Source of the DNA: a virus
DNA length: 40,873 nt
IMG/VR virus record: IMGVR_UViG_3300028536_000001
Location: 1-40,873 of that record
Reading direction: 5' to 3' (one strand)
Shown here: piece by piece, positions 6,408-24,790 of the stretch
Layout: every line of letters begins with the position of its first letter
Position numbering within the stretch: the stretch's first letter is position 1
Notes under the pieces: model-generated
Told to the model about the DNA's origin: nothing
What the model saw: only the letters and a program-made list of their open reading frames with translations
The model's database searches: none
Program-made: the position numbers and the translations under genes

Positions 6408-7256
6408 TTATGATGAAACTACAACTATTTTTATTTCACGGTTTCCTTTGCTAATGTTTTCTAAGTGCCACATGGGTTGTAAGTTTAGATAATAGTTAGC
6501 TAGGATGAAGTGTTGTCGGTCACTTAGGTTAAACCTTGATAACGGAATGATATGATCTATACTCCAAGAATCTTCCGTCTTTCCATAATTATCCCAAGTC
6601 ATTGTGGGTTGAAATTTTGATTCTAAGTGTATTTTTAGTTCTGCAATTGAACATCCAAGATCATCAACCGCTGATCCAGCTTTGTAATTTTTACGTATAG
6701 CGATACCAAGTCTTTGCCGGAGAGCACACCCTAAACGATAGTTAACATCTCTTTTTACTCTATCTTTATGCCGAGCAAGAGACATCTGTTTAGCGTCTGG
6801 TTGAGATTGATAAATCTTTTGGAGCGCTAGAATAGATTCACGATTGTTGATGTATAATTCTGCATGATACTTTTTCGACCTTTCTTTGATTTCAGGTCGA
6901 TTTCTATACTCTTTTTTCTTTTGTCTATTCTCTTCTACTTGAAGCCATGCTCGGCCTTTTTCCCGTTCTTTTTCTTTTACTTCAGGATTTTGGCGTCTTC
7001 TTCGAGAATTCTCTAGGCTAATATTTTTATACGTAGTGAGATAGTATTTTCTTTGCTGTTCTCTGTATTTATGTTTATTCTGCTGATAAAACTCAGAAAC
7101 ACATGTTTTACATTTGTTACGGAGACCGTCTCTAGCGTGCCTGTCTTTTCCAAATTCTTGTGGATCTTTGAATTGATGACAACGATAGCATCTTTTCATT
7201 TTAGGAAAACTTTTTACGAGATTCGTCGCTTGCTTCAAACTCATTGCAGCAGCCAT
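6408..7256 (-). CDS. HNH-family homing endonuclease-like protein
   Basis: N-terminal CxxC...CxxC; C-terminal LGCSIAELKIHLESKFQPTMTWDNYG...WSIDHIIP...NLQPMWHLENISKGN. Confidence 0.8.
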   Translation of the reverse strand: MAAAMSLKQATNLVKSFPKMKRCYRCHQFKDPQEFGKDRHARDGLRNKCKTCVSEFYQQNKHKYREQQRKYYLTTYKNISLENSRRRRQNPEVKEKEREKGRAWLQVEENRQKKKEYRNRPEIKERSKKYHAELYINNRESILALQKIYQSQPDAKQMSLARHKDRVKRDVNYRLGCALRQRLGIAIRKNYKAGSAVDDLGCSIAELKIHLESKFQPTMTWDNYGKTEDSWSIDHIIPLSRFNLSDRQHFILANYYLNLQPMWHLENISKGNREIKIVVVSS

Positions 7257-7467
7257 CAGGACCGTTGACTATTTTCAAGCCACTAACGGAGTCTTTTGGT
7301 ATCTGAGTATCTCGAAGAACTATTCTATTGTTACACAGAGTGCCCTTCGAGAAATATTCACAGTATTGACAGGCCTTTGGTACGGGCGTCTCAATATACC
7401 CGCTAACCCTTGTTTCACGAGGATTCGGAATGTGCTTCCCGCCGAGAATTTCTTTTGCGACAGCCAT
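7201..7467 (-). CDS. Small Cys-rich protein with HiPIP-like Cys spacing
   Basis: CQYCEYF-x5-C...VNGPDGCCNEF. Confidence 0.55.
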   Translation of the reverse strand: MAVAKEILGGKHIPNPRETRVSGYIETPVPKACQYCEYFSKGTLCNNRIVLRDTQIPKDSVSGLKIVNGPDGCCNEFEASDESRKKFS

Positions 7468-7673
7468 TAGATTTTAGACTTCAGATAGGATACGACTGCG
7501 GCGATATCGGACTTCGCTTCCGACTCAGCCTTGACTGCGGCGGCTTCAAGGTCAGAAACTGCCTTGGTGAAGGTAGCCTGCGCTTCGCCTTCGATTTCCT
7601 TGAGGTTCAGGTGTTTGGAAAAGTAAAGGTAACCAATGAGGATTACGGCGAGTAACAATACGAAATCTAACAT
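7467..7673 (-). CDS. Small single-pass membrane protein
   Basis: Hydrophobic N-terminus followed by an Ala/Glu/Lys-rich helix; GGAG RBS. Confidence 0.7.
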   Translation of the reverse strand: MLDFVLLLAVILIGYLYFSKHLNLKEIEGEAQATFTKAVSDLEAAAVKAESEAKSDIAAVVSYLKSKI

Positions 7674-7696
7674 AAGTCTCCAACTCCTTTGAAGTT

Positions 7697-7914
7697 TGGA
7701 GGGCCAGGTGAAAGGAGGAGAAAGACCTGGCCCTCGGGGAGCGCTAAATCAATAACTAATAGCAGCGCTCCAACCTAAAATTCGCCCGTATCAGACCTCG
7801 CAGAGGATAGTTTATTCTTGGAGACTACGGGCCGTTCCAAAAAGTAAATCAACTGCACTAGGTCGTATGAATGTGTGCCCGCCTACGGGCGTAACGGGTT
7901 TCGTGCCTAGCACT
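7697..7914 (-). ncRNA. Putative multi-hairpin ncRNA or structured 5' leader
   Basis: Begins 7 nt after a TACAAT box; four stems (CTAGG/CCTAG, GCCCGTA/TACGGGC, GGAGCGCT/AGCGCTCC, GAGGGCCAGGT/ACCTGGCCCTC); no ORF. Confidence 0.5.
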
Positions 7915-7920
7915 AAATAC

Positions 7921-7949
7921 ATTGTACTACGTTATTGGTTTGCTGTCAA
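7921..7949 (-). promoter_or_regulatory. Sigma70-type promoter
   Basis: TTGACA-17 nt-TACAAT. Confidence 0.75.
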
Positions 7950-7953
7950 GGGG

Positions 7954-8553
7954 TTATGCGTTAGAAATAGCGAATTCCTTGAGGTTGAGTGTTGTAGTTC
8001 CAGTTTGAGCCGTCATCGTCACTGATAAGGTGAATATCAGACCAGATTCCGCAATACTCGCACCAGCGTTTGTCAAAGCTACGACGGCTGCCGGGGCGTT
8101 GTTACCAACCTGATAGCTGTATGTTCCGTTTAATGCTTTGCTCGTAGAATCCCAAAGCAAGTTTGCAGTAAGCTGAAAATTGTAGGAAAGTGTCGCAGTT
8201 ACAGCATTTGAGGCACCAGCCAATGGAGCCGCGAGTTGGTTTCCGCTGATCAGAGTTGTGCTGTTTCCGATGTAAAGAAACGGACGAAAATTGGTTGCTG
8301 CTGTTCCAGCCGTCAAAGTTCCTACGATCTTAACGTTGAAGGGGTGACCATCTACGCCCGAGGCTCCAACTGCGATATCAGCAGGATATTGAACCTGCAA
8401 AGGAGCGCCAGCCGCAAAAGCTGGAGATGGAACAGGTGAACCACTGTTGTAGGTGAAAACTGGAACTACGATCTGAGTTTCTGTAGCTCCTGTAATAGAA
8501 ATTGGTACGGGAAGTCCAAGACTGAACCCGAACGCCGTATTTACGTTTGCCAT
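7954..8553 (-). CDS. Hypothetical beta-rich protein, possibly virion-associated
   Basis: 199-aa ORF rich in T/A/G/S with few charged residues; AGGA RBS. Confidence 0.65.
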   Translation of the reverse strand: MANVNTAFGFSLGLPVPISITGATETQIVVPVFTYNSGSPVPSPAFAAGAPLQVQYPADIAVGASGVDGHPFNVKIVGTLTAGTAATNFRPFLYIGNSTTLISGNQLAAPLAGASNAVTATLSYNFQLTANLLWDSTSKALNGTYSYQVGNNAPAAVVALTNAGASIAESGLIFTLSVTMTAQTGTTTLNLKEFAISNA

Positions 8554-8655
8554 ATATTATTGGTCCTAAAGTACTTAGGTTATTTTAATTTATTTCCGCC
8601 GCGAGGTCCAAGGAACTCCAGCAGGCGTTGACCGCCCGAGGGCCGGTTGAAAAAT

Positions 8656-8731
8656 TGGTAGTTCTGACTGGACTCAAACCAGCATAACATTCTTCGGAGG
8701 AATGTGTCCTTTTCTATTGAACGACAGAACC
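8656..8731 (-). tRNA. tRNA-Arg(CCG)
   Basis: Cloverleaf; loop CT-CCG-AA; CCA. Confidence 0.85.
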
Positions 8732-8735
8732 AAAT

Positions 8736-8810
8736 TGGGAACCGCACTGAGATTCAAACTCAGATACTCTTTGTTAGGACCAAAGGACTTTTTCGTTAAG
8801 TTATGCGGTC
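8736..8810 (-). tRNA. tRNA-Arg(CCT), atypical (G32, C73)
   Basis: Stem CTTTG/CAAAG; loop GT-CCT-AA; CCA. Confidence 0.75.
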
Positions 8811-8814
8811 AAAG

Positions 8815-8890
8815 TGGGGTAGCCATCCGGACTCAAACCGGAATCGTTGAGGTAGAAGCTCAAGGCCCTATTCTATTGGACGATGGCTAC
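8815..8890 (-). tRNA. tRNA-Arg(TCT)
   Basis: Stem TTGAG/CTCAA; loop CT-TCT-AC; CCA. Confidence 0.85.
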
Positions 8891-8895
8891 GAAAG

Positions 8896-8972
8896 TGGTG
8901 GGACGTCTGGAACTCGAATCCAGCTCTGGAGGTTAAAAGCCAACTGCATCTAACCATCAATGCTTACGTCCC
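8896..8972 (-). tRNA. tRNA-Lys(TTT)
   Basis: Loop CT-TTT-AA; two mismatches in the anticodon stem; CCA. Confidence 0.8.
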
Positions 8973-8978
8973 AAAAAC

Positions 8979-9056
8979 TGGGAGAGTTGGGCGACACGCA
9001 GTCGATCCCTATTCTCTTTAGCGTGAATAACTGATTTCAGGATCTTTCCAATCCTC
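8979..9056 (-). ncRNA. Putative 78-nt structured RNA ending in stem+CCA (not a cloverleaf)
   Basis: 5' GAGGATTGG pairs with CCAACTCTC, followed by CCA; inner stems GATCCT/GGGATC and TATTC/GAATA; 5' end coincides with the predicted TSS. Confidence 0.45.
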
Positions 9057-9062
9057 AAATAC

Positions 9063-9091
9063 ATTATACCAAATAGATTGGTGTTTGTCAA
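9063..9091 (-). promoter_or_regulatory. Consensus sigma70-type promoter
   Basis: TTGACA-17 nt-TATAAT. Confidence 0.85.
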
Positions 9092-9101
9092 CAACTATTT
9101 T

Positions 9102-9176
9102 TGGTGCAGCCAGAAAGGATTTAACTTTCGCCAAACAGGGTAAGAGCCTGATATACTGACATTATACGATGGCTGC
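9102..9176 (-). tRNA. tRNA-Lys(CTT)
   Basis: Loop CT-CTT-AC; CCA. Confidence 0.8.
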
Positions 9177-9179
9177 AAG

Positions 9180-9274
9180 TGGGCTAGGCTGAGGGTGTCG
9201 ATCCCTCCCGGTACTCTAATCTGGAGTTTCTCTGCGGTTTATAAGACCGCACTGCACAGCCGGTGCTAACCTAG
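9180..9274 (-). tRNA. tRNA-Ile(TAT)-like with long variable arm
   Basis: Stem TGCGGT/ACCGCA; loop CT-TAT-AA; ~25-nt V region; 5-nt D loop; CCA. Confidence 0.7.
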
Positions 9275-9281
9275 TTAAAAA

Positions 9282-9356
9282 TGGCGCGGGAACTCGGAAC
9301 CGACCCGAGAAGTTTGGTTTTGGAGACCAACAGTTTTCCAGTTAGCTTATTCCCGC
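9282..9356 (-). tRNA. tRNA-Trp(CCA)
   Basis: Stem TTGGT/ACCAA; loop CT-CCA-AA; G73; CCA. Confidence 0.85.
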
Positions 9357-9583
9357 GTAATCTGTAGCTGATTCGAACAATACGAATAAAAGGGTCTTAT
9401 ACCTGTTCCTATCAGTTTACAAGTTGTTTTAGAAACTTCAATATCTTCTCTACGAACAAATTTTCCTTTGATTCGCGTTAAAAGTTTATTGCATGTTTTC
9501 GGGACAGGAACACCATCCAAGTTGAGGATAATGTCGTCGCGCCCGCAAGCGTCACACTCGATATGGTATCTAGTTTCTGTCAT
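9347..9583 (-). CDS. Hypothetical protein within the tRNA array
   Basis: 78-aa ORF filling an inter-tRNA gap; CxxC motif. Confidence 0.5.
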   Translation of the reverse strand: MTETRYHIECDACGRDDIILNLDGVPVPKTCNKLLTRIKGKFVRREDIEVSKTTCKLIGTGIRPFYSYCSNQLQITRE

Positions 9584-9589
9584 TTAAAA

Positions 9590-9675
9590 TGGAGCACCCG
9601 ACAGGACTCAAACCTGTATGTGGAAATTAATCCCTACGTTCGTAGCGTAGTGCCTTTTCGTTAGACTACGGATGC
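9590..9675 (-). tRNA. tRNA-Arg(ACG) with long variable arm
   Basis: Stem CTACG/CGTAG; loop CT-ACG-AA; 16-nt V region (GGA-TTAATT-TCC); CCA. Confidence 0.8.
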
Positions 9676-9684
9676 GTTTTAAAA

Positions 9685-9758
9685 TGGTCGGGATACTCCG
9701 ATTCGCACGGAGGACACATGTGCCCAAGACATGGATGTTGCTTCTACACTATATCCCG
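9685..9758 (-). tRNA. tRNA-Pro(TGG)
   Basis: C1-G72, A73; loop CT-TGG-GC. Confidence 0.85.
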
Positions 9759-9767
9759 TTAAACTTA

Positions 9768-9843
9768 TGGTGCCAACTATCCGTTTTGATCGGATTTCTT
9801 TTCCTCTTCAGGGAAACGTAATAACCCTATCTACGAAGTTGGC
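9768..9843 (-). tRNA. tRNA-Phe(GAA)
   Basis: Stem TTTCC/GGAAA; loop CT-GAA-GA; CCA. Confidence 0.8.
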
Positions 9844-9865
9844 AAATCGTTGATACTAAATAAGT

Positions 9866-9941
9866 TGGTGGAGCCTGTCGGCTTTGCTCCGACCGCCTCT
9901 TCGGTGCAAGCGAAGTGCTCTCCTGAATGAGCTAAGGCCCC
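9866..9941 (-). tRNA. tRNA-Ala(TGC)
   Basis: G3:U70 pair; loop CT-TGC-AC; CCA. Confidence 0.9.
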
Positions 9942-9947
9942 TAAAAT

Positions 9948-10079
9948 TTATGCAAACAAAATTTGTCTTGCTTCTGTCGCGCTGATAATACCCGCATCAA
10001 ACAGATTTCGGACACAAACAGCTAAATCTGCGCCAAACACAATTTTAAGTTGTTTAGCTAACTTATTTGTTAATTCCAT
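9948..10079 (-). CDS. 43-aa hypothetical protein (not in ORF track)
   Basis: AGGAGG RBS, then MELTNKLAKQLKIVFGADLAVCVRNLFDAGIISATEARQILFA*. Confidence 0.6.
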   Translation of the reverse strand: MELTNKLAKQLKIVFGADLAVCVRNLFDAGIISATEARQILFA

Positions 10080-10113
10080 ATTTCCTCCTGTCCATTTTCT
10101 GGACAAAAAAATT

Positions 10114-10192
10114 TGGAGAGGGAGAAACTGAGTCCTCCCCCTCGCACCGTGTCTGAAACGTACGGTGGGACGCCTCGCGGCGCTAAGCCACT
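10114..10192 (-). ncRNA. Putative 79-nt structured RNA ending in stem+TCCA
   Basis: Hairpins CGCC-GCGA-GGCG, CACCGT/ACGGTG and GAGGGGGAG/TTCTCCCTC, then TCCA and a T run; begins at the predicted TSS. Confidence 0.45.
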
Positions 10193-10198
10193 AAATAC

Positions 10199-10227
10199 AT
10201 TGTACTATCATATTGACTGGCTGTCAA
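10199..10227 (-). promoter_or_regulatory. Sigma70-type promoter, twin of 7921-7949
   Basis: TTGACA-17 nt-TACAAT with the same downstream GTATTTAGTG. Confidence 0.75.
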
Positions 10228-10235
10228 GGGTAAAA

Positions 10236-10312
10236 TGGGGTGTACGGGACGAATCGAACGTCCTTAAACAACAGAGTCACAGTCTGAGGCCGCACCAATT
10301 GGCTTCGCACAC
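10236..10312 (-). tRNA. tRNA-His(GTG)
   Basis: Loop CT-GTG-AC; C73; CCA. Confidence 0.8.
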
Positions 10313-10318
10313 GTAAAA

Positions 10319-10393
10319 TGGAGCCTCCACAGAGAGTTGCGCTCTGCTCTATAGTTTACAGGACTATTGCATCGCTGTCAATGCTTTGGAGGC
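10319..10393 (-). tRNA. tRNA-Thr(TGT)
   Basis: Stem ATAGT/ACTAT; loop CC-TGT-AA; CCA. Confidence 0.8.
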
Positions 10394-10395
10394 GG

Positions 10396-10932
10396 TTAAT
10401 CTTGTTGCATCGAAGTATTCTCGAAATACAAATATTTACGCCAAAGTGGATCATCTTCGCCCATCGCCCGGATCACATGACGGCTGGTGTGCATGTTCAC
10501 GGGCTTGTATCTTTTTGAAAGCACCATTCCCGCTTCTTCAGGAGTACGGTTTGCTTTGAACAAGTTACAAGGCTTGCAACACGCGGTTAAGTTGGACCAA
10601 GTTCCGCGTCCGCCCCTAGATTGGGGTTGAATATGGTCTAAAGTAAGATCCGATGACGAAAATCTCTTTACACAATAAGCACAGGTGTATTTATCCCGAA
10701 GGTAAATGTTCTTACGAGTCAAAACTTGTAGTCTATGAGGAATGTATACGTGCCGAAGAAGACGGATTACCGAAGGGACTGGAATATCGGGACGCAGGTA
10801 CTTATTTTTGTGCTCGGTAATCTCAACGGCGTTCTTAACCAGCAACTTGACGGCGTTCTTGACCGTAGTGATTTGGCTAGGCTCATAAGCCACATTAAGG
10901 ACCAAGACCGGCGATGAAATTAAACTTGGCAA
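10396..10932 (-). CDS. HNH endonuclease (McrA/HNH_5-like)
   Basis: VLVLNVAYEP...PSVIRL...TRKNIYLRDKYTCAYC...TLDHIQPQSRGG...WSNLTACCKPCN. Confidence 0.9.
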   Translation of the reverse strand: MPSLISSPVLVLNVAYEPSQITTVKNAVKLLVKNAVEITEHKNKYLRPDIPVPSVIRLLRHVYIPHRLQVLTRKNIYLRDKYTCAYCVKRFSSSDLTLDHIQPQSRGGRGTWSNLTACCKPCNLFKANRTPEEAGMVLSKRYKPVNMHTSRHVIRAMGEDDPLWRKYLYFENTSMQQD

Positions 10933-10979
10933 CGAGCAATATCCTCCTCAAAATACGTGCTCTTAGTGTAACATACTTA

Positions 10980-11054
10980 TGGAGCCAGCAGCCAGGTTTA
11001 AACTGGCGTCTTTTCTTTACGAGAGAAAAATTCTATCAATTGAACTATGCTGAC
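10980..11054 (-). tRNA. tRNA-Thr(CGT)
   Basis: Stem TTTCT/AGAAA; loop CT-CGT-AA; CCA. Confidence 0.85.
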
Positions 11055-11058
11055 GATT

Positions 11059-11445
11059 CTACCACAATCCAGAAAAAGCCCCAACCTTTGCTAGTCGTTT
11101 CATTTCTTTCTGAAAGTCGGGACCGTGATCATGACGGCTTTTACGAAGTTTTAATTTCAAGTGGACAATTTCGTGAAAAAGTGTTAGCAGCACAGTACGC
11201 TTACCAACATCATATAGATTGGTATTAATTCGTATAGTGTGCTTTCTTTCGTACGTTTTTCTGTACGTTCCTTTATCGTTTCCTCGAACTCTCTGAGCGA
11301 GTACACATCTTTCGGGACTATAGTCACCCATAACATTTTCAGGAAGTTCAGAAGACCAAAATACTCTGCAATCTGTCGGAAGAGTATTTCTATAGTATCG
11401 AGAATTGATTACGTCGTAATAATGTTTAAGACTGTATCTAGACAA
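11059..11445 (-). CDS. SprT-like zinc metalloprotease
   Basis: TLFHEIVH...HGPDFQKEMKRL; TTG start after GAGGAGG (the longer ORF-track start lies inside tRNA-Gln). Confidence 0.75.
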   Translation of the reverse strand: MSRYSLKHYYDVINSRYYRNTLPTDCRVFWSSELPENVMGDYSPERCVLAQRVRGNDKGTYRKTYERKHTIRINTNLYDVGKRTVLLTLFHEIVHLKLKLRKSRHDHGPDFQKEMKRLAKVGAFSGLW

Positions 11446-11465
11446 ACGTCCTCCTCGTTTCAACT

Positions 11466-11541
11466 TGGTTCCGGAGGTAGGATTGCAACCCACATTCACT
11501 GGTTCAAAGCCAGATTTCCTAGCATCTTAGAAGACTCCGGA
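11466..11541 (-). tRNA. tRNA-Gln(TTG)
   Basis: U1-A72; loop CT-TTG-AA; CCA. Confidence 0.85.
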
Positions 11542-11546
11542 ATAAA

Positions 11547-11705
11547 CTATTCTTCGTTTTCTAAAGCTCTTTCCAACTCCAAGTCATCCAAGTAGTGACC
11601 GAACTGCTTGATCGCCTCTTCATCAACAACAAAACCTTCTTCGGCCAAGATAGCCTGTAAACGATCATCTTGGAAGTGCGATTTAATGCGGTCGGATGTG
11701 CTCAT
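11547..11705 (-). CDS. Small acidic hypothetical protein
   Basis: MSTSDRIKSHF... with AAAGGA RBS, lying between tRNAs. Confidence 0.6.
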   Translation of the reverse strand: MSTSDRIKSHFQDDRLQAILAEEGFVVDEEAIKQFGHYLDDLELERALENEE

Positions 11706-11723
11706 TGGAAATCCTTTCAGATG

Positions 11724-11800
11724 TGGATGCCTCTCTTGGTCTCGAACCAAGCCTATTCTTCGTTCAGAGCGAAGTGCCATACCAACTAGGCGAAGAGGCA
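11724..11800 (-). tRNA. tRNA-Gln(CTG)
   Basis: Stem CTTCG/CGAAG; loop CT-CTG-AA; CCA. Confidence 0.85.
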
Positions 11801-11809
11801 GTAAAATTT

Positions 11810-11901
11810 TGGCTGTAGGGGTGGGAGTCGAACCCACAGTTGACTACTTGATTCGTCGATTGGTTAACGGCCAATTGCCTTCCCATTCAGCGCACCCTAC
11901 A
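11810..11901 (-). tRNA. tRNA-Asn(GTT) with long variable region
   Basis: U1-A72, G73; stem ATTGG/CCAAT; loop CC-GTT-AA; 21-nt V region. Confidence 0.8.
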
Positions 11902-12417
11902 TCAGTTTCTAATAATCTTGATAATCTCAAGCGCATCAGAATATTTAACCCACTCTCCATCCTCAGAGTGAACATTATATTTATCTAAGAGTTCCTGTTC
12001 CGCTTTTCTTCTATTCAAACAAAACTCGTAGTGTTTTATGTAGAACTTTTTAAACGGATCATACGTTTGGTAAGAGGACAGCCTAGATGCTGTATCTACA
12101 GTCATACCTATTTTAAGATGATCTGGCCAAGCAGGATTAGCTATAAGATAAACCATTCCTTCCTTACAGTTGTTGGTCTTTGCCCCGCGTGACAGTTTCA
12201 ATCTTAAAAGTTCAAGTCCAGCTAGTTTTCTGGCATAATTTCTTTGAAACTTTTTGTTATTGGACTCACCTAAATTTCCGTACACTTCAATGTAGGCTGA
12301 TAACATTTCTTCAGTTATGTCAAATGCCGTACACGTAGGAACCCAACCTGTTCGGGTGAGTATATCAACTGTTCTTTTAATTCTATCAGTTCTTCCAACA
12401 TCTGTTGGATTACTCAT
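11902..12417 (-). CDS. GIY-YIG (T5orf172/MUG113-like) nuclease
   Basis: GMVYLIANPAWPDHLKIGMT...RLSSYQT.DP...AEQ...GEW. Confidence 0.8.
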   Translation of the reverse strand: MSNPTDVGRTDRIKRTVDILTRTGWVPTCTAFDITEEMLSAYIEVYGNLGESNNKKFQRNYARKLAGLELLRLKLSRGAKTNNCKEGMVYLIANPAWPDHLKIGMTVDTASRLSSYQTYDPFKKFYIKHYEFCLNRRKAEQELLDKYNVHSEDGEWVKYSDALEIIKIIRN

Positions 12418-12505
12418 CCTTTATCCTTGAAACATTTATTAAAGTTGATATTTACGTCAATTTCATTCCAAAATAGAACTAAATTGACGTATACATCATT
12501 TAATT

Positions 12506-12581
12506 TGGAACCAGCAACCAGAATTGAACTGGCATTCTCTGTTGGAAAGACAGGAGTCCTCGACCGTTAGACGATGCTGGC
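12506..12581 (-). tRNA. tRNA-Glu(TTC)
   Basis: Loop CT-TTC-CA; Glu-type D arm; CCA. Confidence 0.85.
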
Positions 12582-12585
12582 AAAC

Positions 12586-12762
12586 TTAACTTACAGAAGC
12601 GTGACGACCTGCGACAGCGTAGGCTCTATCCCATCTCGACTCACCAGAAGCATTAAATCGGAGTCCGCAGGAACATGCTACTGAAGCTACATCATCTCCA
12701 ACCCTTGAAAGAGTTATTCTGTGAAACAAGGAACGAACTAAAGTGCGTAAAAATTTTGGCAT
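12586..12762 (-). CDS. 58-aa hypothetical protein (not in ORF track)
   Basis: AAGGA RBS; MPKFLRTLVRSLFHRITL...ACSCG...GRHASVS*; fills the gap between two tRNAs. Confidence 0.5.
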   Translation of the reverse strand: MPKFLRTLVRSLFHRITLSRVGDDVASVACSCGLRFNASGESRWDRAYAVAGRHASVS

Positions 12763-12778
12763 TGTTTTCCTTTTAAAG

Positions 12779-12853
12779 TGGCGATCTCGAAGGGAATCAA
12801 ACCCTTAACTTACACCGTGACAAGGTGGCGCTTTATCGTTAAGCTACGAGACC
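12779..12853 (-). tRNA. tRNA-Asp(GTC)
   Basis: Loop TT-GTC-AC; G73; CCA. Confidence 0.85.
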
Positions 12854-12854
12854 T

Positions 12855-12928
12855 TGGTTGCGTGTCTGGGAGTTGAACCCAGTTTTTGGGATTATGAGCC
12901 CCACGTAGAGCCGTTCTACTACCCCGCA
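12855..12928 (-). tRNA. tRNA-Met(CAT), initiator-like
   Basis: Stem TGGGG/TCCCA; loop CT-CAT-AA; 5' TGCGGGG; CCA. Confidence 0.8.
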
Positions 12929-12933
12929 TTATT

Positions 12934-12962
12934 AGAATAACACAAAACTATTCAGTTGTCAA
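12934..12962 (-). promoter_or_regulatory. Sigma70-type promoter just upstream of tRNA-Met
   Basis: TTGACA-17 nt-TATTCT. Confidence 0.6.
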
Positions 12963-12970
12963 TAAAAATC

Positions 12971-13056
12971 TGGTGAGTGCGCTCAGGATCGAACTGAGTG
13001 TGCTCTAAAGCGCCTGTTCTACAGACAGGTGGACTTGCCTTCAGTCCATCGCACCC
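12971..13056 (-). tRNA. tRNA-Tyr(GTA)
   Basis: Loop CT-GTA-GA; class II V arm; A73; CCA. Confidence 0.85.
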
Positions 13057-13066
13057 GTTTTCTGGA

Positions 13067-13492
13067 CTACTTCTTAGACAGTGTAATTTTTACCCAGTTT
13101 GCAAATTCGTGTTTGGAATAATACGGATGATTGAAGATACATTCCCAACCTCCGCGAGGAATACCATCGGAACAACCTCTGTAAACCCGCCACCGTGATT
13201 CTGCGGTTTTCTTGACCGTACAAAGCCGGGCTATTTTTCCACAGATCTGACAAACTTTGATAGACTTGATATCTTTTTCGGCAATCGAATCTACGTACTG
13301 TCCGATGTGCTTTTGAGGGCAGGCATATCCAAAACTATAGGCTATCACATCTTCTGGCTTGGTGTCCAAATCGGGTTCTGGATCTGGTGCTATAATTTTT
13401 ACGGTTTCAGGATTATCACATGGAATACACGTACCTGGTTTTGGGTATGTATCCAACACGATAACTTCTTCCTTTTTATTTTTCCAAAACAT
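13067..13492 (-). CDS. Hypothetical protein, probably Zn-binding
   Basis: 141-aa ORF; AAGGAG RBS; CxxxH and CxxC motifs. Confidence 0.65.
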   Translation of the reverse strand: MFWKNKKEEVIVLDTYPKPGTCIPCDNPETVKIIAPDPEPDLDTKPEDVIAYSFGYACPQKHIGQYVDSIAEKDIKSIKVCQICGKIARLCTVKKTAESRWRVYRGCSDGIPRGGWECIFNHPYYSKHEFANWVKITLSKK

Positions 13493-13508
13493 AGTTCTCC
13501 TTTAAAAA

Positions 13509-13604
13509 TGGAGGAGAGAGTGGGATTTCAACCCACGGTGCTTGGGTTTAGCAAGACACGACGGTTTTCAGGACCGCTGCAATAAAACGCTCTGCCACCT
13601 CTCC
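13509..13604 (-). tRNA. tRNA-Ser(TGA)
   Basis: Loop CC-TGA-AA; long V arm; CCA. Confidence 0.85.
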
Positions 13605-13605
13605 A

Positions 13606-13691
13606 TGGCCGAGAACGTTGGAGTCGAACCAACTAATCCTTTCGGATTTACAGTTTAGCAAACTGCTGCATTACCGTCCTGCCCGTTCTCG
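13606..13691 (-). tRNA. tRNA-Ser(GCT)
   Basis: Loop TT-GCT-AA; V arm AATCC-GAAA-GGATT; G73. Confidence 0.9.
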
Positions 13692-13698
13692 TAAATTG

Positions 13699-13776
13699 TG
13701 GCACGGATGACTGGACTCAAACCAGTAAACATCTTATTTTGAATAAGATAGGTATTTCAATTCCCACCACATCCGC
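13699..13776 (-). tRNA. tRNA-Leu(CAA) lacking the long variable arm
   Basis: Stem TCTTA/TAAGA; loop TT-CAA-AA; 5-nt V loop; G73. Confidence 0.75.
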
Positions 13777-13777
13777 G

Positions 13778-13966
13778 TTAATCTAATCCAATATACTCCG
13801 ACAAAGCCTCGGCTGCCCAAACGTACGCAACTCTTAGTTTGTGGAATTCCTTATCATTTATTTCCTTGAAGGTTGAGTAAGATCGAAAGGTGTAGTCAAA
13901 ACCTTCCTGTCCTACTCGCTGGCGTACTGGTTCAAACTCATCCTCAAAATCGTCGTCGCCGTACAT
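13778..13966 (-). CDS. Small acidic hypothetical protein
   Basis: AAGGAGG RBS; MYGDDDFEDEFE... Confidence 0.7.
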   Translation of the reverse strand: MYGDDDFEDEFEPVRQRVGQEGFDYTFRSYSTFKEINDKEFHKLRVAYVWAAEALSEYIGLD

Positions 13967-13981
13967 GTTTCCTCCTTGATG

Positions 13982-14069
13982 TGGTACCCGATGAGAGATT
14001 TCAACTCTCAATGACCTTTACGATCGACGCGGCCTAAACGCGTTGTGTCTTGCGTTCCACCAATCGGGC
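13982..14069 (-). tRNA. tRNA-Leu(TAG)
   Basis: Stem ACGCG/CGCGT; loop TT-TAG-GC; V arm; A73. Confidence 0.85.
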
Positions 14070-14540
14070 GTATTTAAACTTCTTACTTCTACTTTTACTC
14101 CTGCAATCTTTACAGTAAGCCTGTATACCATCTCGCCTATTTCCGTTTTTGTGAAATAGACTTTTACAGAGATAATCGGCGCACCCAACACACCATTTTG
14201 TATCTTCTGGCGCATCTAAGTGTCTGGTATTTGGTGGAAGAAACGATTTTGGACGAGGGCCGATTCTCGGTCTACTACACCCCACATTACACCTTAGATG
14301 AGAAAAGGCAATATTATCCAAATCCCAGAATAAATTAGAATCTAGACCAAGCCACGGTTCTTTATGGTCTACACTCAACTCTTCAGGAGTCTCTATTATC
14401 TTCTTACAGCGATAACAAATGTTTTCTTTTAACCTGCAAACAAGAGAAAATAGTATTCTCTTCTTTAACCTACCACTCGCTCGGCCTATGGGCATTCCAA
14501 GTTGATCGGATTTTCTTTCGTTAGATGTATTTATGTACAT
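14034..14540 (-). CDS. HNH endonuclease
   Basis: CYRC...SVDHKEPW...NIAFSHLRCN plus C-terminal CxxC...CxxC; start trimmed to the ATG downstream of tRNA-Cys. Confidence 0.75.
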   Translation of the reverse strand: MYINTSNERKSDQLGMPIGRASGRLKKRILFSLVCRLKENICYRCKKIIETPEELSVDHKEPWLGLDSNLFWDLDNIAFSHLRCNVGCSRPRIGPRPKSFLPPNTRHLDAPEDTKWCVGCADYLCKSLFHKNGNRRDGIQAYCKDCRSKSRSKKFKYARLVERKTQRV

Positions 14541-14547
14541 AGATATT

Positions 14548-14624
14548 TGGAGTCGGCAGAGAGAATCGAACTCTCGCATTTCAGGTTTTGCAGACCTGCG
14601 CTTTACCGTCTTAGCTATGCCGAC
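14548..14624 (-). tRNA. tRNA-Cys(GCA)
   Basis: Loop CT-GCA-AA; U73; CCA. Confidence 0.9.
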
Positions 14625-14629
14625 AAACT

Positions 14630-14712
14630 TGGAGCGGAAGACGAGACTCGAACTCGCATGGCTTGCGCCGTTAGTTTGGAAAACTAATTCCTTACCGTTA
14701 GGATACTTCCGC
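14630..14712 (-). tRNA. tRNA-Gly(TCC) with long variable arm
   Basis: GCG/CGC acceptor top, U73; loop TT-TCC-AA; 13-nt V region (GGC-GCAA-GCC). Confidence 0.85.
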
Positions 14713-14721
14713 ATTAAACTT

Positions 14722-14796
14722 TGGTCCACCCTGCTGGACTCAAACCAACGTATCGCTCTAATCAGGAGCGCGTCCTAGTCGCTGGACGAAGGGTGG
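14722..14796 (-). tRNA. tRNA-Ile(GAT), atypical U37
   Basis: Stem CGCTC/GAGCG; loop CT-GAT-TA; A73. Confidence 0.75.
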
Positions 14797-14797
14797 A

Positions 14798-14872
14798 TGG
14801 AGCTACGAGTCGGAACTGACCCGACAACTATACCTTACCGAGGTATTATGTTTCCCGTTACACTATCATAGC
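14798..14872 (-). tRNA. tRNA-Thr(GGT)
   Basis: Stem ATACC/GGTAT; loop TC-GGT-AA; CCA. Confidence 0.8.
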
Positions 14873-14874
14873 AT

Positions 14875-14950
14875 TGGTACCGGATGCAGGCTTTGCTCCC
14901 GCCACTTCAATCTTGTAAGGATTGCACTCTACTGAATGAGTTAATCCGGC
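14875..14950 (-). tRNA. tRNA-Val(TAC)
   Basis: Stem CAATC/GATTG; loop CT-TAC-AA; A73. Confidence 0.85.
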
Positions 14951-14957
14951 ATAAAAC

Positions 14958-15035
14958 TGGTAGCGACGCCGAGCCTCGAACTCGGAAACATCTCATTTTA
15001 AAGGAGATAGGTATACCGATTCCCTTCACGTCGCC
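14958..15035 (-). tRNA. tRNA-Leu(TAA) lacking the long variable arm
   Basis: Loop TT-TAA-AA; 5-nt V loop; A73; CCA. Confidence 0.75.
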
Positions 15036-15098
15036 AAAACAAAACTGTCCTTATTGTATATAAACCCATTTTTCCAAACTTAGTTGCGATTTGTCAAG

Positions 15099-24624: not shown

Positions 24625-24652
24625 ACAGTTTCCATAGTCCATTTTCCGGACA

Positions 24653-24790
24653 GAGATTTGCCCGAGCCTTGAAGGAGGGCAAGGCTCGGGACTCGAAGCC
24701 AGATGAGCCGTTTCGGATACCGGCGGGGCGCAACTGGCCGCTTGGATTGTGCCTTAGGAGGGAGAAGGCTGCGCAGGGCTGTTGAATCTG
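24653..24790 (-). ncRNA. Putative multi-hairpin RNA with CCUCCU loops
   Basis: CCCGAGCCTTG-CCCTCCTT-CAAGGCTCGGG and GCCTT-CTCCCTCCT-AAGGC hairpins; strand uncertain. Confidence 0.5.

What the first reader, a model, noticed from the sequence alone, without database searches (positions are those of the whole stretch)
7697..10227. Three sibling promoters each start a structured non-tRNA RNA ending in stem+CCA
Seen: promoters at 7921-7949, 9063-9091 and 10199-10227 (TTGACA-17-TAYAAT) are all followed by GTATTT and a purine start. Each predicted TSS begins an ORF-free structured segment: 9056-8979 (78 nt, 5'/3' closing stem then CCA), 10192-10114 (79 nt, 9-bp hairpin then TCCA) and 7914-7697 (~218 nt, last hairpin ending ...CCCTCCA). 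None folds as a cloverleaf, yet two are tRNA-sized and sit in tRNA slots of the array. Inference: an unannotated set of phage small RNAs or tRNA mimics matured by the tRNA-processing machinery, for example decoys for anticodon nucleases, RelA or acceptor-end toxins.
Basis: partly seen in the sequence, partly recalled or inferred. Interest (0 to 1): 0.72.

Follow-up and report, generated by a model that had tools for sequence, protein, structure and literature searches.

The report
Three sibling promoters, no tRNA mimics
Three near-identical strong promoters inside this soil phage's tRNA gene array are real, but the RNAs they start are ordinary-looking leaders rather than tRNA mimics; one promoter is the counterpart of the one that drives true tRNA-mimicking Y RNAs and a Ro60 protein gene in the phage's relatives, a module that this phage lacks.

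Summary
The three promoters (TTGACA-17-TAYAAT-GTATTT, minus strand, at 10227, 9091 and 7949) are real and are copies of one another. The claim that each starts a tRNA-sized, CCA-ended tRNA mimic does not hold.

- **Element C (7914-7697):** its promoter sits where eight related phages have the same promoter driving 3-5 Y-RNA modules, including tRNA-like YrlA, plus a Ro60 gene. This complete 106.5-kb genome has neither Y RNAs nor Ro60. The last 80 nt of C (7772-7693) is a double hairpin that lies just after the Ro60 stop codon in relatives. It is supported by covariation (relatives-only model: E=4e-12). Its "CCA" reads GCA in every relative.
- **Element B (9056-8973):** it is the leader of the tRNA-Lys/Arg operon. 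It folds no better than shuffled sequence. The matching promoter-to-tRNA spacing in relatives is only 17-42 nt, against 90 nt here.
- **Element A (10192-10114):** it is specific to this lineage. It has three hairpins, the last terminator-like, followed by CAAAU7, the genome's 17-bp motif and a 43-aa ORF.

None of the three matches tRNA, YrlA or any Rfam family. Whether A and the 5' part of C accumulate as separate small RNAs remains untested.

The parts
10199..10227 (-). Promoter P_A: TTGACA, 17 nt, TACAAT. It is followed by GTATTT (10198-10193) and a predicted start at A10192.
   Evidence: It is 86% identical to P_C over 42 nt. It is absent at the same place in relatives L049 and L057.
10114..10192 (-). 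Element A: a 79-nt ORF-free leader with three hairpins. H1 is 10183-10170 with a GCGA loop, H2 is 10167-10145, and H3 is 10143-10116.
   Evidence: Fold -33.6 kcal/mol, z -2.1 to -2.7. No Rfam, tRNA or Y-model match. No homologue found. L049 has an unrelated 75-nt structured insert without a promoter at the same site.
10105..10143 (-). Terminator-like end of A: an 11-bp hairpin H3, then CAAA, then seven U.
   Evidence: Best-ranked terminator-like site in the first 20 kb. The U run starts 4 nt after the stem, unlike the phage's canonical terminators.
10089..10105 (.). One copy of the genome-wide 17-bp motif TGTCC-N7-GGACA, lying between A and the ribosome-binding site of the 43-aa ORF.
   Evidence: Seven copies in the window against 0.02 expected. 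The same layout of hairpin, CAAAU run and motif recurs at 24652 and 64057 and in L049.
9948..10079 (-). 43-aa ORF with an AGGAGG ribosome-binding site. It is the first gene downstream of P_A and is followed by tRNA-Ala, Phe, Pro and Arg.
   Evidence: No PHROG or Pfam family. No homologue in the relatives' loci.
9063..9091 (-). Promoter P_B: TTGACA, 17 nt, TATAAT (12 of 12, with TG before the -10), then GTATTT. Predicted start at G9056.
   Evidence: An orthologous promoter stands before tRNA-Lys(UUU) in 7 relatives.
8973..9056 (-). Element B: the 84-nt leader of the tRNA-Lys(UUU), Arg(UCU), Arg(CCU), Arg(CCG) operon.
   Evidence: Fold z -0.9 and -0.4, not significant. In relatives the distance from the -10 box to the tRNA is 17-42 nt, against 90 nt here. 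No Rfam or ARAGORN match.
8899..8972 (-). tRNA-Lys (anticodon UUU), the first gene after leader B. ARAGORN missed it; Rfam found it.
   Evidence: RF00005, 37.7 bits. The anticodon loop CUUUUAA was read from the sequence. Homologues are called Lys(ttt) in relatives.
7921..7949 (-). Promoter P_C: TTGACA, 17 nt, TACAAT, then GTATTT. Predicted start at A7914. It is the orthologue of the Y RNA/Ro60 operon promoter of relatives.
   Evidence: It stands just after the stop codon of the 199-aa ORF, as in all relatives. The 21 nt TAACGCATAACCCCTTGACAG are identical in L055, and L052 has TACAATGTATTTAG.
7780..7914 (-). 5' part of element C: 135 nt of modest structure, in the place of the Y RNA array and Ro60 gene.
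   Evidence: z -1.8 for the whole part and -2.4 for the 117-nt closed domain. One hairpin, ACGCCCGUAGGCGGGCA, matches a spacer hairpin in L056 with one compensatory pair (score 29, null maximum 23). A Y-module-like stretch is only borderline and is not found by model R1.
7693..7772 (-). Conserved double hairpin. H1 is about 7775-7736 and H2 is 7735-7699. The H2 loop CUUUCUCCUCCUUUC (7724-7710) carries the invariant CCUCCUUUC.
   Evidence: Model R2, built from 5 relatives only, hits here at 55.9 bits, E=4e-12. It is a single copy in the genome. In relatives all 20 pairs are 100% paired, 7 with compensatory changes, and all slid controls fail. Fold z -6.2.
7467..7673 (-). 68-aa ORF with an N-terminal hydrophobic helix. 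It is the first gene downstream of P_C, and small hydrophobic ORFs of 59-61 aa sit at the same position in relatives.
   Evidence: The next gene (88 aa, 7201-7467) has homologues at 48-52% identity in the same order in relatives.
7954..8553 (-). 199-aa ORF of no known family. It served as the anchor that led to the related loci.
   Evidence: Homologues P0002-P0010 at 60-73% identity. Contigs L049-L060.

Best explanation
The three sites are copies of one strong promoter of the host sigma-70 type, spread through the phage's tRNA array. Each starts a different transcription unit with its own leader. They do not start a family of CCA-ended tRNA mimics.

1. **P_C** is the counterpart of the promoter that in the nearest relatives drives 3-5 Y RNAs (one or two of the tRNA-like YrlA type), a Ro60 gene, a conserved double hairpin, and then a small membrane-protein gene. 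In this phage the Y RNAs and Ro60 are absent. I infer they were deleted, but that is not proven. The promoter now reads through about 135 nt of leftover or spacer-type RNA straight into the double hairpin and the 68-aa gene. The second hairpin shows CCUCCUUUC in its loop. In this phage that loop can pair with the gene's AAAGGAG ribosome-binding site, so I infer that it damps translation.
2. **P_B** is the conserved promoter of the tRNA-Lys/Arg operon. Its leader is longer here but has no special fold.
3. **P_A** is a lineage-specific copy of the promoter inserted after tRNA-His. It makes a three-hairpin leader that ends in a weak, terminator-like hairpin, then CAAAU7 and the 17-bp motif, ahead of a 43-aa gene and four tRNAs.

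Shown: the promoters, the gene-order homology, the absence of Ro60, Y RNA and tRNA features, and the conserved hairpin pair. Inferred: the deletion, the translational role, and that the leaders act on their own transcripts.
For: - **Promoters.** Three exact matches against 0.10 expected. The GTATTT class occurs only at these three sites in the genome. A and C promoters are 86% identical.
- **Relatives.** Eight distinct phages show the order: 199-aa ORF, same promoter, ORF-free Y array, Ro60 gene, double hairpin, small ORF, homologue of the 88-aa ORF.
- **Ro60 in relatives.** Identified by TROVE and vWA_Ro60 matches above cut-off. The best PDB match is Thermus phage phiLo Ro60, E 1.7e-17. It is 70-94% identical among relatives.
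- **Y RNAs in relatives.** YrlA matches at E 1.6e-5 to 7.5e-7 in L054, L055, L056, L057 and L059. Model R1, trained on module 1 only, recovers the untrained modules.
- **Own genome.** No Ro60, no Y module, no YrlA.
- **Double hairpin.** The relatives-only model hits 7772-7693 at E=4e-12. All pairs are kept and 7 are compensatory.
- **CCA.** It reads GCA in relatives.
- **Loop and ribosome-binding site.** The duplex is -12.3 kcal/mol in this phage.
- **B.** Fold not significant. Relatives have 17-42 nt from the -10 box to tRNA-Lys, against 90 nt here.
- **A.** L057 has no insert at that site, and L049 has a different insert without a promoter.
- **No tRNA likeness.**
- **Not an assembly error.** The sequence is 100% identical in two other samples.
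Against: - No expression data exist, so start sites, ends and stability are all predictions.
- A, and the 117-nt closed domain in the 5' part of C, fold somewhat better than shuffles (z about -2.4 to -2.7). Each is followed by an AU-rich spacer like those that separate tRNAs here and Y RNAs in relatives, so excision as stable RNAs is plausible.
- The relatives' operons also carry variable structured inserts that are not Y RNAs. One of these shares a hairpin with C. The slot therefore does collect RNA cassettes.
- The invariant loop CCUCCUUUC is not explained by pairing within the same transcript in relatives. There the loop-to-ribosome-binding-site duplex is only -2 to -6.6 kcal/mol.
- Loss versus never-gained for Ro60 is unresolved. 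The 199-aa tree is a star, with the window on the longest branch.
- Only 5-8 relatives were available, and none for A.
Confidence: 0.6

Rival explanations
1. A, the 5' part of C, and perhaps B are separate, stable early small RNAs. They would be cut out of the array transcripts at the AU-rich spacers (RNase E-type sites) and trimmed back to their terminal hairpins. The neighbouring tRNAs are released this way, as are the Y RNAs of relatives. They would act on other molecules, with unknown targets, comparable to the T4 RNAs RNAC and RNAD.
For: - Strong dedicated promoters.
- No ORFs.
- Folds at z -2.1 to -2.7 for A and -2.4 for the closed domain of C.
- Each element ends in a hairpin plus an A/U-rich tract like the tRNA trailers.
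- The slot of C holds stable RNA genes in every relative: Y RNAs in eight close relatives and tRNAs in two distant ones.
- Relatives' arrays hold other non-tRNA RNAs, such as a CyVA-1-like RNA at 39.9 bits.
- T4 has two small RNAs of unknown role in its tRNA region (PMC3014915, PMC9697503).
Against: - No homologue or covariation was found for A, B or the 5' part of C.
- B is not structured.
- Each element is directly followed by genes that need the promoter.
- The z-scores are modest.
Confidence: 0.25
2. One reading: the three RNAs are tRNA mimics that mature to a stem plus CCA through RNase P, 3' trimming and the CCA-adding enzyme. They would serve as decoys for anticodon nucleases, RelA or toxins that attack the acceptor end.
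For: - CCA or UCCA letters follow a stem in all three.
- Two are tRNA-sized.
- True tRNA mimics (YrlA) sit at the orthologous locus of C in relatives.
- M. smegmatis YrlA is cut by RNase P and gains CCA (PMC4201824).
- The 3' ends of A and B are weakly alike (score 28, reached by 1 of 300 shuffles).
Against: - No tRNA or YrlA match at E<=10.
- Relaxed ARAGORN gives no call.
- No T loop or D arm.
- No similarity to the 30 tRNAs.
- CCA reads GCA in all homologues of C's end.
- None has a 7-bp stem followed by a discriminator base and CCA, as the array's own tRNAs do.
- B's leader is missing in relatives.
- The genome has no Ro60 partner.
Confidence: 0.05
3. The promoter-proximal hairpins act on RNA polymerase from within the transcript, like the put RNAs of phage HK022 or the lambda pR'-tR' leader. 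Transcription that starts at these promoters would then read through the many hairpin-plus-U-run sites, such as tRNA ends, in the array.
For: - Structured RNA lies directly after two of the three promoters.
- The array is full of stem-plus-U-run sites.
- A carries its own terminator-like hairpin before the genes.
- The comparison with put and lambda rests on my own knowledge, not on a tool result.
Against: - A, B and C share no sequence or structure.
- The relatives' tRNA-Lys promoters have leaders too short for such an element.
- In relatives, the Y RNAs begin about 12-17 nt after the predicted start.
Confidence: 0.05
4. A and B are decayed tRNA genes, keeping remnants of a T arm, a 3' acceptor strand and CCA, left behind by recombination between the CCA-plus-U-run junctions of the array.
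For: - B shares the 10-mer AGGGAUCGAC with the T arm of the neighbouring tRNA-Ile(UAU).
- B is 78 nt long, with an 8-of-9 closing stem and CCA.
- Inserts at the site of A in L049 and in the window both end in CCA just before AAUUUU.
Against: - The 10-mer score lies within the shuffle range (20 against a 95th percentile of 22).
- No covariance-model or ARAGORN signal.
- There is no discriminator base before CCA.
Confidence: 0.05

Closest known systems
Ro60 (Rsr) and Y RNA / YrlA operons of bacteria and phages (Chen et al. 2014, PMC4201824; Thermus phage phiLo Ro60 with Yrl1 and Yrl2, PMC12135203)
   Same: In the eight close relatives, the promoter orthologous to P_C drives this kind of operon. 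Several Y modules share a GGUGAUAG-type 5' strand. At least one module has T and D arms (YrlA matches). A TROVE/vWA Ro60 gene lies directly downstream, and its best structural relative by sequence is phiLo Ro60.
   Different: The window's phage has the promoter and the downstream hairpins but no Ro60 and no Y or YrlA module. The relatives' YrlA matches score 32-44 bits, below Rfam's 69-bit cut-off. Their operons sit inside a tRNA array and hold up to five modules plus unrelated structured inserts.
T4 small RNAs RNAC and RNAD (species 1 and 2) in the T4 tRNA region (PMC3014915; PMC9697503)
   Same: Non-tRNA, non-coding segments embedded in a phage tRNA gene cluster, of unknown role. This is the model for the small-RNA rival.
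   Different: RNAC and RNAD are shown to accumulate. Nothing is known about the expression of A, B or C, and no sequence comparison was made.
Inhibitory hairpins at translation start regions, such as T4 genes e, soc, 49 and I-TevI (reviewed in PMC3014915)
   Same: Hairpin 2 of element C lies about 10 nt upstream of the ribosome-binding site. Its loop can pair with that site at -12.3 kcal/mol.
   Different: Here the ribosome-binding site is not inside the stem. Instead, a loop copy of the anti-Shine-Dalgarno sequence would capture it, forming a pseudoknot. In relatives the loop is invariant while the complementarity is weak, so pairing within the transcript may not be its main role.
Other structured RNAs found beside tRNA genes in phages: CyVA-1, GOLLD and ROOL (Weinberg et al. 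2017, PMC5737381)
   Same: Non-tRNA structured RNAs that travel with phage tRNA clusters. A CyVA-1-like RNA (39.9 bits against a cut-off of 41.4) lies in the arrays of relatives L057 and L049.
   Different: No such match exists in the window. A, B and C are unrelated to these families.
Promoter-proximal leader RNAs of lambdoid phages: the lambda pR'-tR' '6S' transcript and HK022 put RNAs (from my own knowledge, not checked here)
   Same: A strong constitutive promoter followed within about 80-200 nt by hairpins, with a terminator-like site before the genes. This fits element A.
   Different: No sequence or structural likeness was tested or seen. No antiterminator protein or conserved element is known here.

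Membership tests
Bacterial sigma-70-type promoter | A -35 TTGACA and a -10 TATAAT separated by 17 +/- 1 bp | tested here: met
   11-12 of 12 consensus positions with a 17-bp spacer at all three sites. Three exact matches to the extended pattern against 0.10 expected.
tRNA or tRNA-like cloverleaf | Match to the tRNA covariance model or a cloverleaf call | tested here: not met
   No RF00005 match on A, B or C at E<=10 with permissive filters, while all neighbouring tRNAs score 37-52 bits. ARAGORN at lowered thresholds, and in its combined tRNA/tmRNA and tmRNA-only modes, finds nothing.
tRNA or tRNA-like cloverleaf | A 7-bp acceptor stem followed by a discriminator base and CCA | tested here: not met
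   Read from the sequence. In B the CCA follows the closing stem with no discriminator base. In A the 11-bp stem is followed by CAAA. In C it is followed by CAAAC, and relatives read GCA there.
Y RNA / YrlA (Ro60-bound RNA) | Encoded next to a Ro60 (TROVE) gene | tested here: not met
   No Ro60 anywhere in the complete genome (tblastn best E 5.3). The feature is met in all eight relatives.
Y RNA / YrlA (Ro60-bound RNA) | A closing stem with the conserved Ro60-binding strand (GNCGAAN0-1G in PMC4201824; GGUGAUAG-type in these phages) | tested here: not met
   Model R1, built from 8 relatives, finds untrained modules in relatives at E 1e-10 to 0.01. It finds nothing in 7600-10300 at E<=10 with filters off or in the whole genome. 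A motif scan of the genome gives only chance hits in coding DNA.
Y RNA / YrlA (Ro60-bound RNA) | A tRNA-like domain with T and D arms (Rfam RF02553) | tested here: not met
   No RF02553 match in the window or the genome. Relatives score 32-44 bits, E 1.6e-5 to 2e-3, below the 69-bit cut-off.
Conserved double hairpin downstream of Ro60 (family defined here) | Two adjacent hairpins, the second with the loop CUUUYYYCCUCCUUUC, just upstream of the small membrane-protein ORF | tested here: met
   The relatives-only model R2 hits 7772-7693 over its full length at 55.9 bits, E=4e-12. Covariation in relatives is documented.
Intrinsic (Rho-independent) terminator | A GC-rich hairpin followed at once by a U tract | tested here: inconclusive
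   A's hairpin H3 (11 bp) is the top terminator-like site. However, CAAA separates the stem from U7. Canonical terminators of this genome have the U run directly after the stem.
Stable small RNAs of phage tRNA clusters (T4 RNAC/RNAD type) | Accumulate as discrete processed RNAs during infection | not testable with these tools
The host is unknown.

The most novel reading that the evidence does not exclude
The three promoters make three discrete, abundant early small RNAs, released at the AU-rich spacers as the tRNAs here and the Y RNAs of relatives are. Element C would be a Ro60-independent successor of the Y RNA array. Its terminal hairpin shows an invariant copy of the 16S rRNA 3' tail (CCUCCUUUC). 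That copy would act on other molecules: on Shine-Dalgarno sequences, or on a factor that recognises the 16S tail.
Probability: 0.12. Interest if true: 0.65.

Novelty: new variant of a known kind. Interest (0 to 1): 0.36.

Why it matters
The result removes an attractive but unsupported claim of a new class of CCA-ended tRNA mimics. It replaces that claim with a testable evolutionary picture.

- In one group of about 100-kb soil phages, a Y RNA/Ro60 module is embedded in the tRNA array. It holds up to five Y modules, including tRNA-like YrlA, and is driven by a conserved consensus promoter.
- This phage is a natural variant that lacks the module while keeping its promoter and its downstream hairpin pair. 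Comparing it with its relatives could show what phage Ro60 and Y RNAs are for.
- The work also defines a small new conserved RNA motif: a double hairpin with an invariant anti-Shine-Dalgarno loop.
- It shows that the tRNA arrays of these phages collect assorted structured RNAs.

Tried and rejected
- **Phage GenBank DNA search** of 7600-10400: no match.
- **IMG/VR searches** with the 199-aa ORF, the DNA polymerase and an alignment of the 199-aa ORF: no relatives.
- **A 16-mer of the promoter plus start in IMG/VR:** 46 hits, all unrelated.
- **JGI metagenome scan** with the alignment: only the contig already held.
- **Earlier-findings search for look-alike stretches in other genomes:** nothing.
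- **Second and third contigs with the identical 199-aa protein:** 100% identical DNA, so useless for covariation.
- **Y-RNA relic in the 5' part of C:** there is a borderline local match to module 1 of L057 (score 24, null maximum 25). Model R1 does not see it, so I do not claim it.
- **A as a short paralogue of C:** the alignment is not significant (97 of 300 shuffles score as high).
- **A versus the L049 insert at the same site:** not significant (33 of 500).
- **MAFFT alignment of the A and B cassettes:** only the promoter aligns.
- **Tree of the 199-aa protein to decide loss or gain of Ro60:** unresolved star.
- **Weak R2 hits** at 24697-24655 (E 0.91) and on A at 10170-10111 (E 2.1): not significant.
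- **Scan for the hairpin-2 loop in IMG/VR and in genomes:** only the short hairpin or loop matches, in unrelated contexts.

Full report
**Setting.** The window is the first 40.9 kb of a complete 106,512-bp virus record with terminal repeats. Positions 8,650-15,040 on the minus strand hold about 30 tRNA genes, interleaved with small ORFs and homing-endonuclease genes. The finding concerns three ORF-free gaps at the downstream end of this array.

**Observation.** Reading the minus strand confirms three promoters:
- TTGACA-17-TACAAT at 10227-10199
- TTGACA-17-TATAAT at 9091-9063
- TTGACA-17-TACAAT at 7949-7921

Each is followed by GTATTT and a purine. These are three of the four strongest minus-strand promoter-like sites in the first 20 kb. 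The extended 35-nt pattern matches exactly three times, where 0.10 matches are expected even with up to three mismatches. Other consensus promoters in the genome lack GTATTT. The first and third promoters are 86% identical over 42 nt, including flanks. 'Sibling promoters' is therefore correct.

The segments downstream contain no credible ORF. Their folding differs:
- Element C (218 nt) scores z -3.9. Its last 77 nt alone give z -6.2, and its first 135 nt only -1.8.
- Element A scores z -2.1 to -2.7.
- Element B scores z -0.9 and -0.4, which is no better than shuffled sequence.

**Tests for known RNA kinds.**
- Rfam at its gathering thresholds finds only tRNAs in the window.
- At E<=10 with permissive filters on 7600-10300, it finds nothing on A, B or C.
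- ARAGORN at lowered thresholds, and in its combined tRNA/tmRNA and tmRNA-only modes, finds nothing.
- Local alignment of A, B and the 5' part of C to all 30 tRNAs gives scores inside the shuffle range.

The elements are not recognisable tRNAs, decayed or otherwise.

**Relatives.** DNA and single-protein searches of the phage collections found nothing. The 199-aa ORF between B and C (7954-8553) has homologues at 60-73% identity in public assemblies. Their contigs (L049-L060) represent eight distinct related phages that cover the region, plus a ninth (L060) that is cut off at the promoter.

In all eight, the 199-aa ORF is followed by the same promoter. L055 shares 21 identical nt across the stop codon and the -35 box. 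L052 reads TACAATGTATTTAG. After the promoter come:
- 380-770 nt without ORFs
- a 445-451-aa gene
- a hairpin pair
- a 59-61-aa hydrophobic ORF
- a homologue of the window's 88-aa ORF

**The 445-451-aa gene is Ro60.** It matches TROVE, vWA_Ro60 and VWA_2 above Pfam cut-offs. Its best solved relative is the Ro60 of Thermus phage phiLo (9KOP/9L5Y, E 1.7e-17). It is 70-94% identical among the relatives.

**The ORF-free stretch is an array of Y-RNA-like modules.** Each module has:
- a closing stem that covaries
- a 5' strand of the type GGUGAUAG
- an inner helix
- UUACUUC
- a 3' strand ending in GUUC

The last one or two modules carry a T arm (GGUUCGAAUCC) and a D arm (UAGUUCAGYGGYAGAAC). They match Rfam YrlA at E 1.6e-5 to 7.5e-7, which is below the family cut-off but far from chance. 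This is the architecture described for bacterial and phage Ro60 loci in PMC4201824, where M. smegmatis YrlA is even cut by RNase P and given CCA. The same pairing is described for phage phiLo in PMC12135203.

**This phage lacks the module.**
- A search with the relatives' Ro60 finds nothing in the genome (tblastn best E 5.3).
- A covariance model built only from module 1 of the eight relatives (A2/R1) recovers the untrained second modules and YrlA modules in relatives at E 1e-10 to 0.01.
- The same model finds nothing in 7600-10300 with filters off at E<=10, and nothing in the whole genome.
- Rfam YrlA is also absent.

**What remains of element C.** A model built only from the five relatives' hairpin pair downstream of the Ro60 stop (A5/R2) hits the window at 7772-7693 over its full length, at 55.9 bits and E=4e-12. 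It is the only copy in the genome. In the relatives, all 20 pairs are kept in every sequence. Seven pairs carry compensatory changes, and every slid control collapses to 33-47% pairing.

The loop of the second hairpin is invariant in CCUCCUUUC. The bases after the stem are CAAAC here. In relatives they are GCG-CAAAC, UCG-CAGAA and UUG-CAAAA.

The loop can pair with the ribosome-binding region of the 68-aa ORF at -12.3 kcal/mol in this phage. In relatives the figure is only -2 to -6.6 kcal/mol. A role within the same transcript is plausible here, but it does not explain why the loop never varies.

**The 5' 135 nt of C.** This part has no clear homologue. One hairpin (ACGCCCGUAGGCGGGCA) matches a spacer hairpin between Y modules in L056, with one compensatory pair (score 29 against a null maximum of 23). 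A stretch that looks like the 5' half of a Y module is only borderline, and R1 does not detect it.

**Loss or gain of Ro60.** This is unresolved. Two distant relatives (L061, L062; 32-38% identity) have two tRNAs in this slot and no promoter, Ro60 or hairpin pair. The tree of the 199-aa protein does not resolve the close clade. The promoter and the hairpin pair flank the module in every relative, and the first hairpin overlaps the Ro60 stop codon. For these reasons I favour a deletion in this lineage, as an inference only.

**Element B.** The promoter is conserved in front of tRNA-Lys(UUU) in seven relatives. There the distance from the -10 box to the tRNA is 17-42 nt, against 90 nt here. The extra sequence is unique to this phage and thermodynamically unremarkable. 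Its shared 10-mer with the T arm of tRNA-Ile(UAU) is within chance. B is best read as a tRNA-operon leader.

**Element A.** The order tRNA-His, AAUUUU, 17-bp motif is shared with L049 and L057.
- L057 has nothing between the CCA of tRNA-His and the AU-rich tract.
- L049 has an unrelated 75-nt structured insert without a promoter (z -2.3 to -2.7).
- The window has the promoter copy plus the 79-nt element.

A therefore arose within this lineage. Its last hairpin is the top terminator-like site in the region. However, CAAA separates the stem from the U run, unlike the phage's canonical terminators. The same composite of hairpin, CAAAU run and 17-bp motif recurs at 24652 and 64057. It looks like punctuation at the start of a transcription unit.

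A may be a leader or attenuator for the 43-aa ORF and four tRNAs. It may also be a short terminated RNA. The data do not decide between these.

**Comparison and verdict.** For the locus in relatives, the closest known system is the Ro60-Y RNA/YrlA operon. The window fails every defining feature of that family. For the small-RNA rival, the closest precedent is T4 RNAC/RNAD (PMC3014915, PMC9697503). The finding is a real promoter family plus a mis-read set of leaders. The most useful result is the Y RNA/Ro60 module in the relatives' tRNA arrays, its absence here, and the new conserved hairpin pair. The sequence is identical in two further samples, so it is not an assembly artefact.

Noticed in passing
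L049:10640-12317; also L052, L054, L055, L056, L057, L058, L059 downstream of the homologue of the 199-aa ORF: Eight related phages carry a Ro60 gene inside their tRNA array. It is preceded by 3-5 Y-RNA-like modules (one or two YrlA-like, with T and D arms) and by variable structured inserts of 40-190 nt that are not Y RNAs. The whole unit lies under one consensus promoter.
   Followed up: partly
L057:271-345 and L049 about 8045-8125: A CyVA-1-like RNA (RF02965, 39.9 bits against a cut-off of 41.4, E 5.8e-6) lies inside the relatives' tRNA array. In L049 a gene caller placed an 89-aa ORF over part of it. The window has no counterpart.
   Followed up: no
L057:63-146 and L049:7851-7935: An 84-nt element starts inside the right arm of the 17-bp motif. 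It has a good T arm (AGAG-UUCGACU-CUCU) and ends in GGUCCACCA. Neither ARAGORN nor Rfam calls it a tRNA, and its fold is at chance level (z -0.07). It could be an odd or decaying tRNA.
   Followed up: partly
window 24655-24697 (-), 10105-10143 (-); genome 64057 (-); L049:7820-7857: A recurring composite: a GC-rich hairpin (often with CCUCC in the loop), then CAAA plus a U run or a plain U run, then directly the 17-bp TGTCC-N7-GGACA motif and a gene start. This suggests that the motif marks the beginning of transcription units just after terminator-like sites.
   Followed up: partly
window 7710-7724 (-); L067:4531-4559, L068:10128-10156, L069:4185-4213: The invariant loop CCUCCUUUC of hairpin 2 equals what I recall as the 3' tail of many bacterial 16S rRNAs (recalled from memory, not checked). 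A similar hairpin (GGGCGGU-CUUUCCCCUCCUUUC-ACCGUCC) occurs between genes in three other IMG/VR contigs of 34-148 kb that are not close relatives.
   Followed up: partly
window 8899-8972, 9105-9176, 11469-11541 (-): Rfam finds three tRNAs (37.7-51.6 bits) that ARAGORN does not call. The first two read as Lys(UUU) and Lys(CUU) from their anticodon loops. The ARAGORN list therefore understates the set, and Lys is not missing.
   Followed up: partly
window 7954-8553 (-): A 199-aa Ala/Gly/Thr-rich protein with no Pfam or PHROG family is conserved at 60-73% identity at the downstream end of the tRNA array in all relatives, and at 32-38% in a second clade. Its function is unknown.
   Followed up: no
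L064 (Logan SRR7975446) and L065 (ENA ERZ27253151): The same phage occurs at 100% nucleotide identity over 11.4 kb and 7.2 kb in two other public samples.
   Followed up: yes
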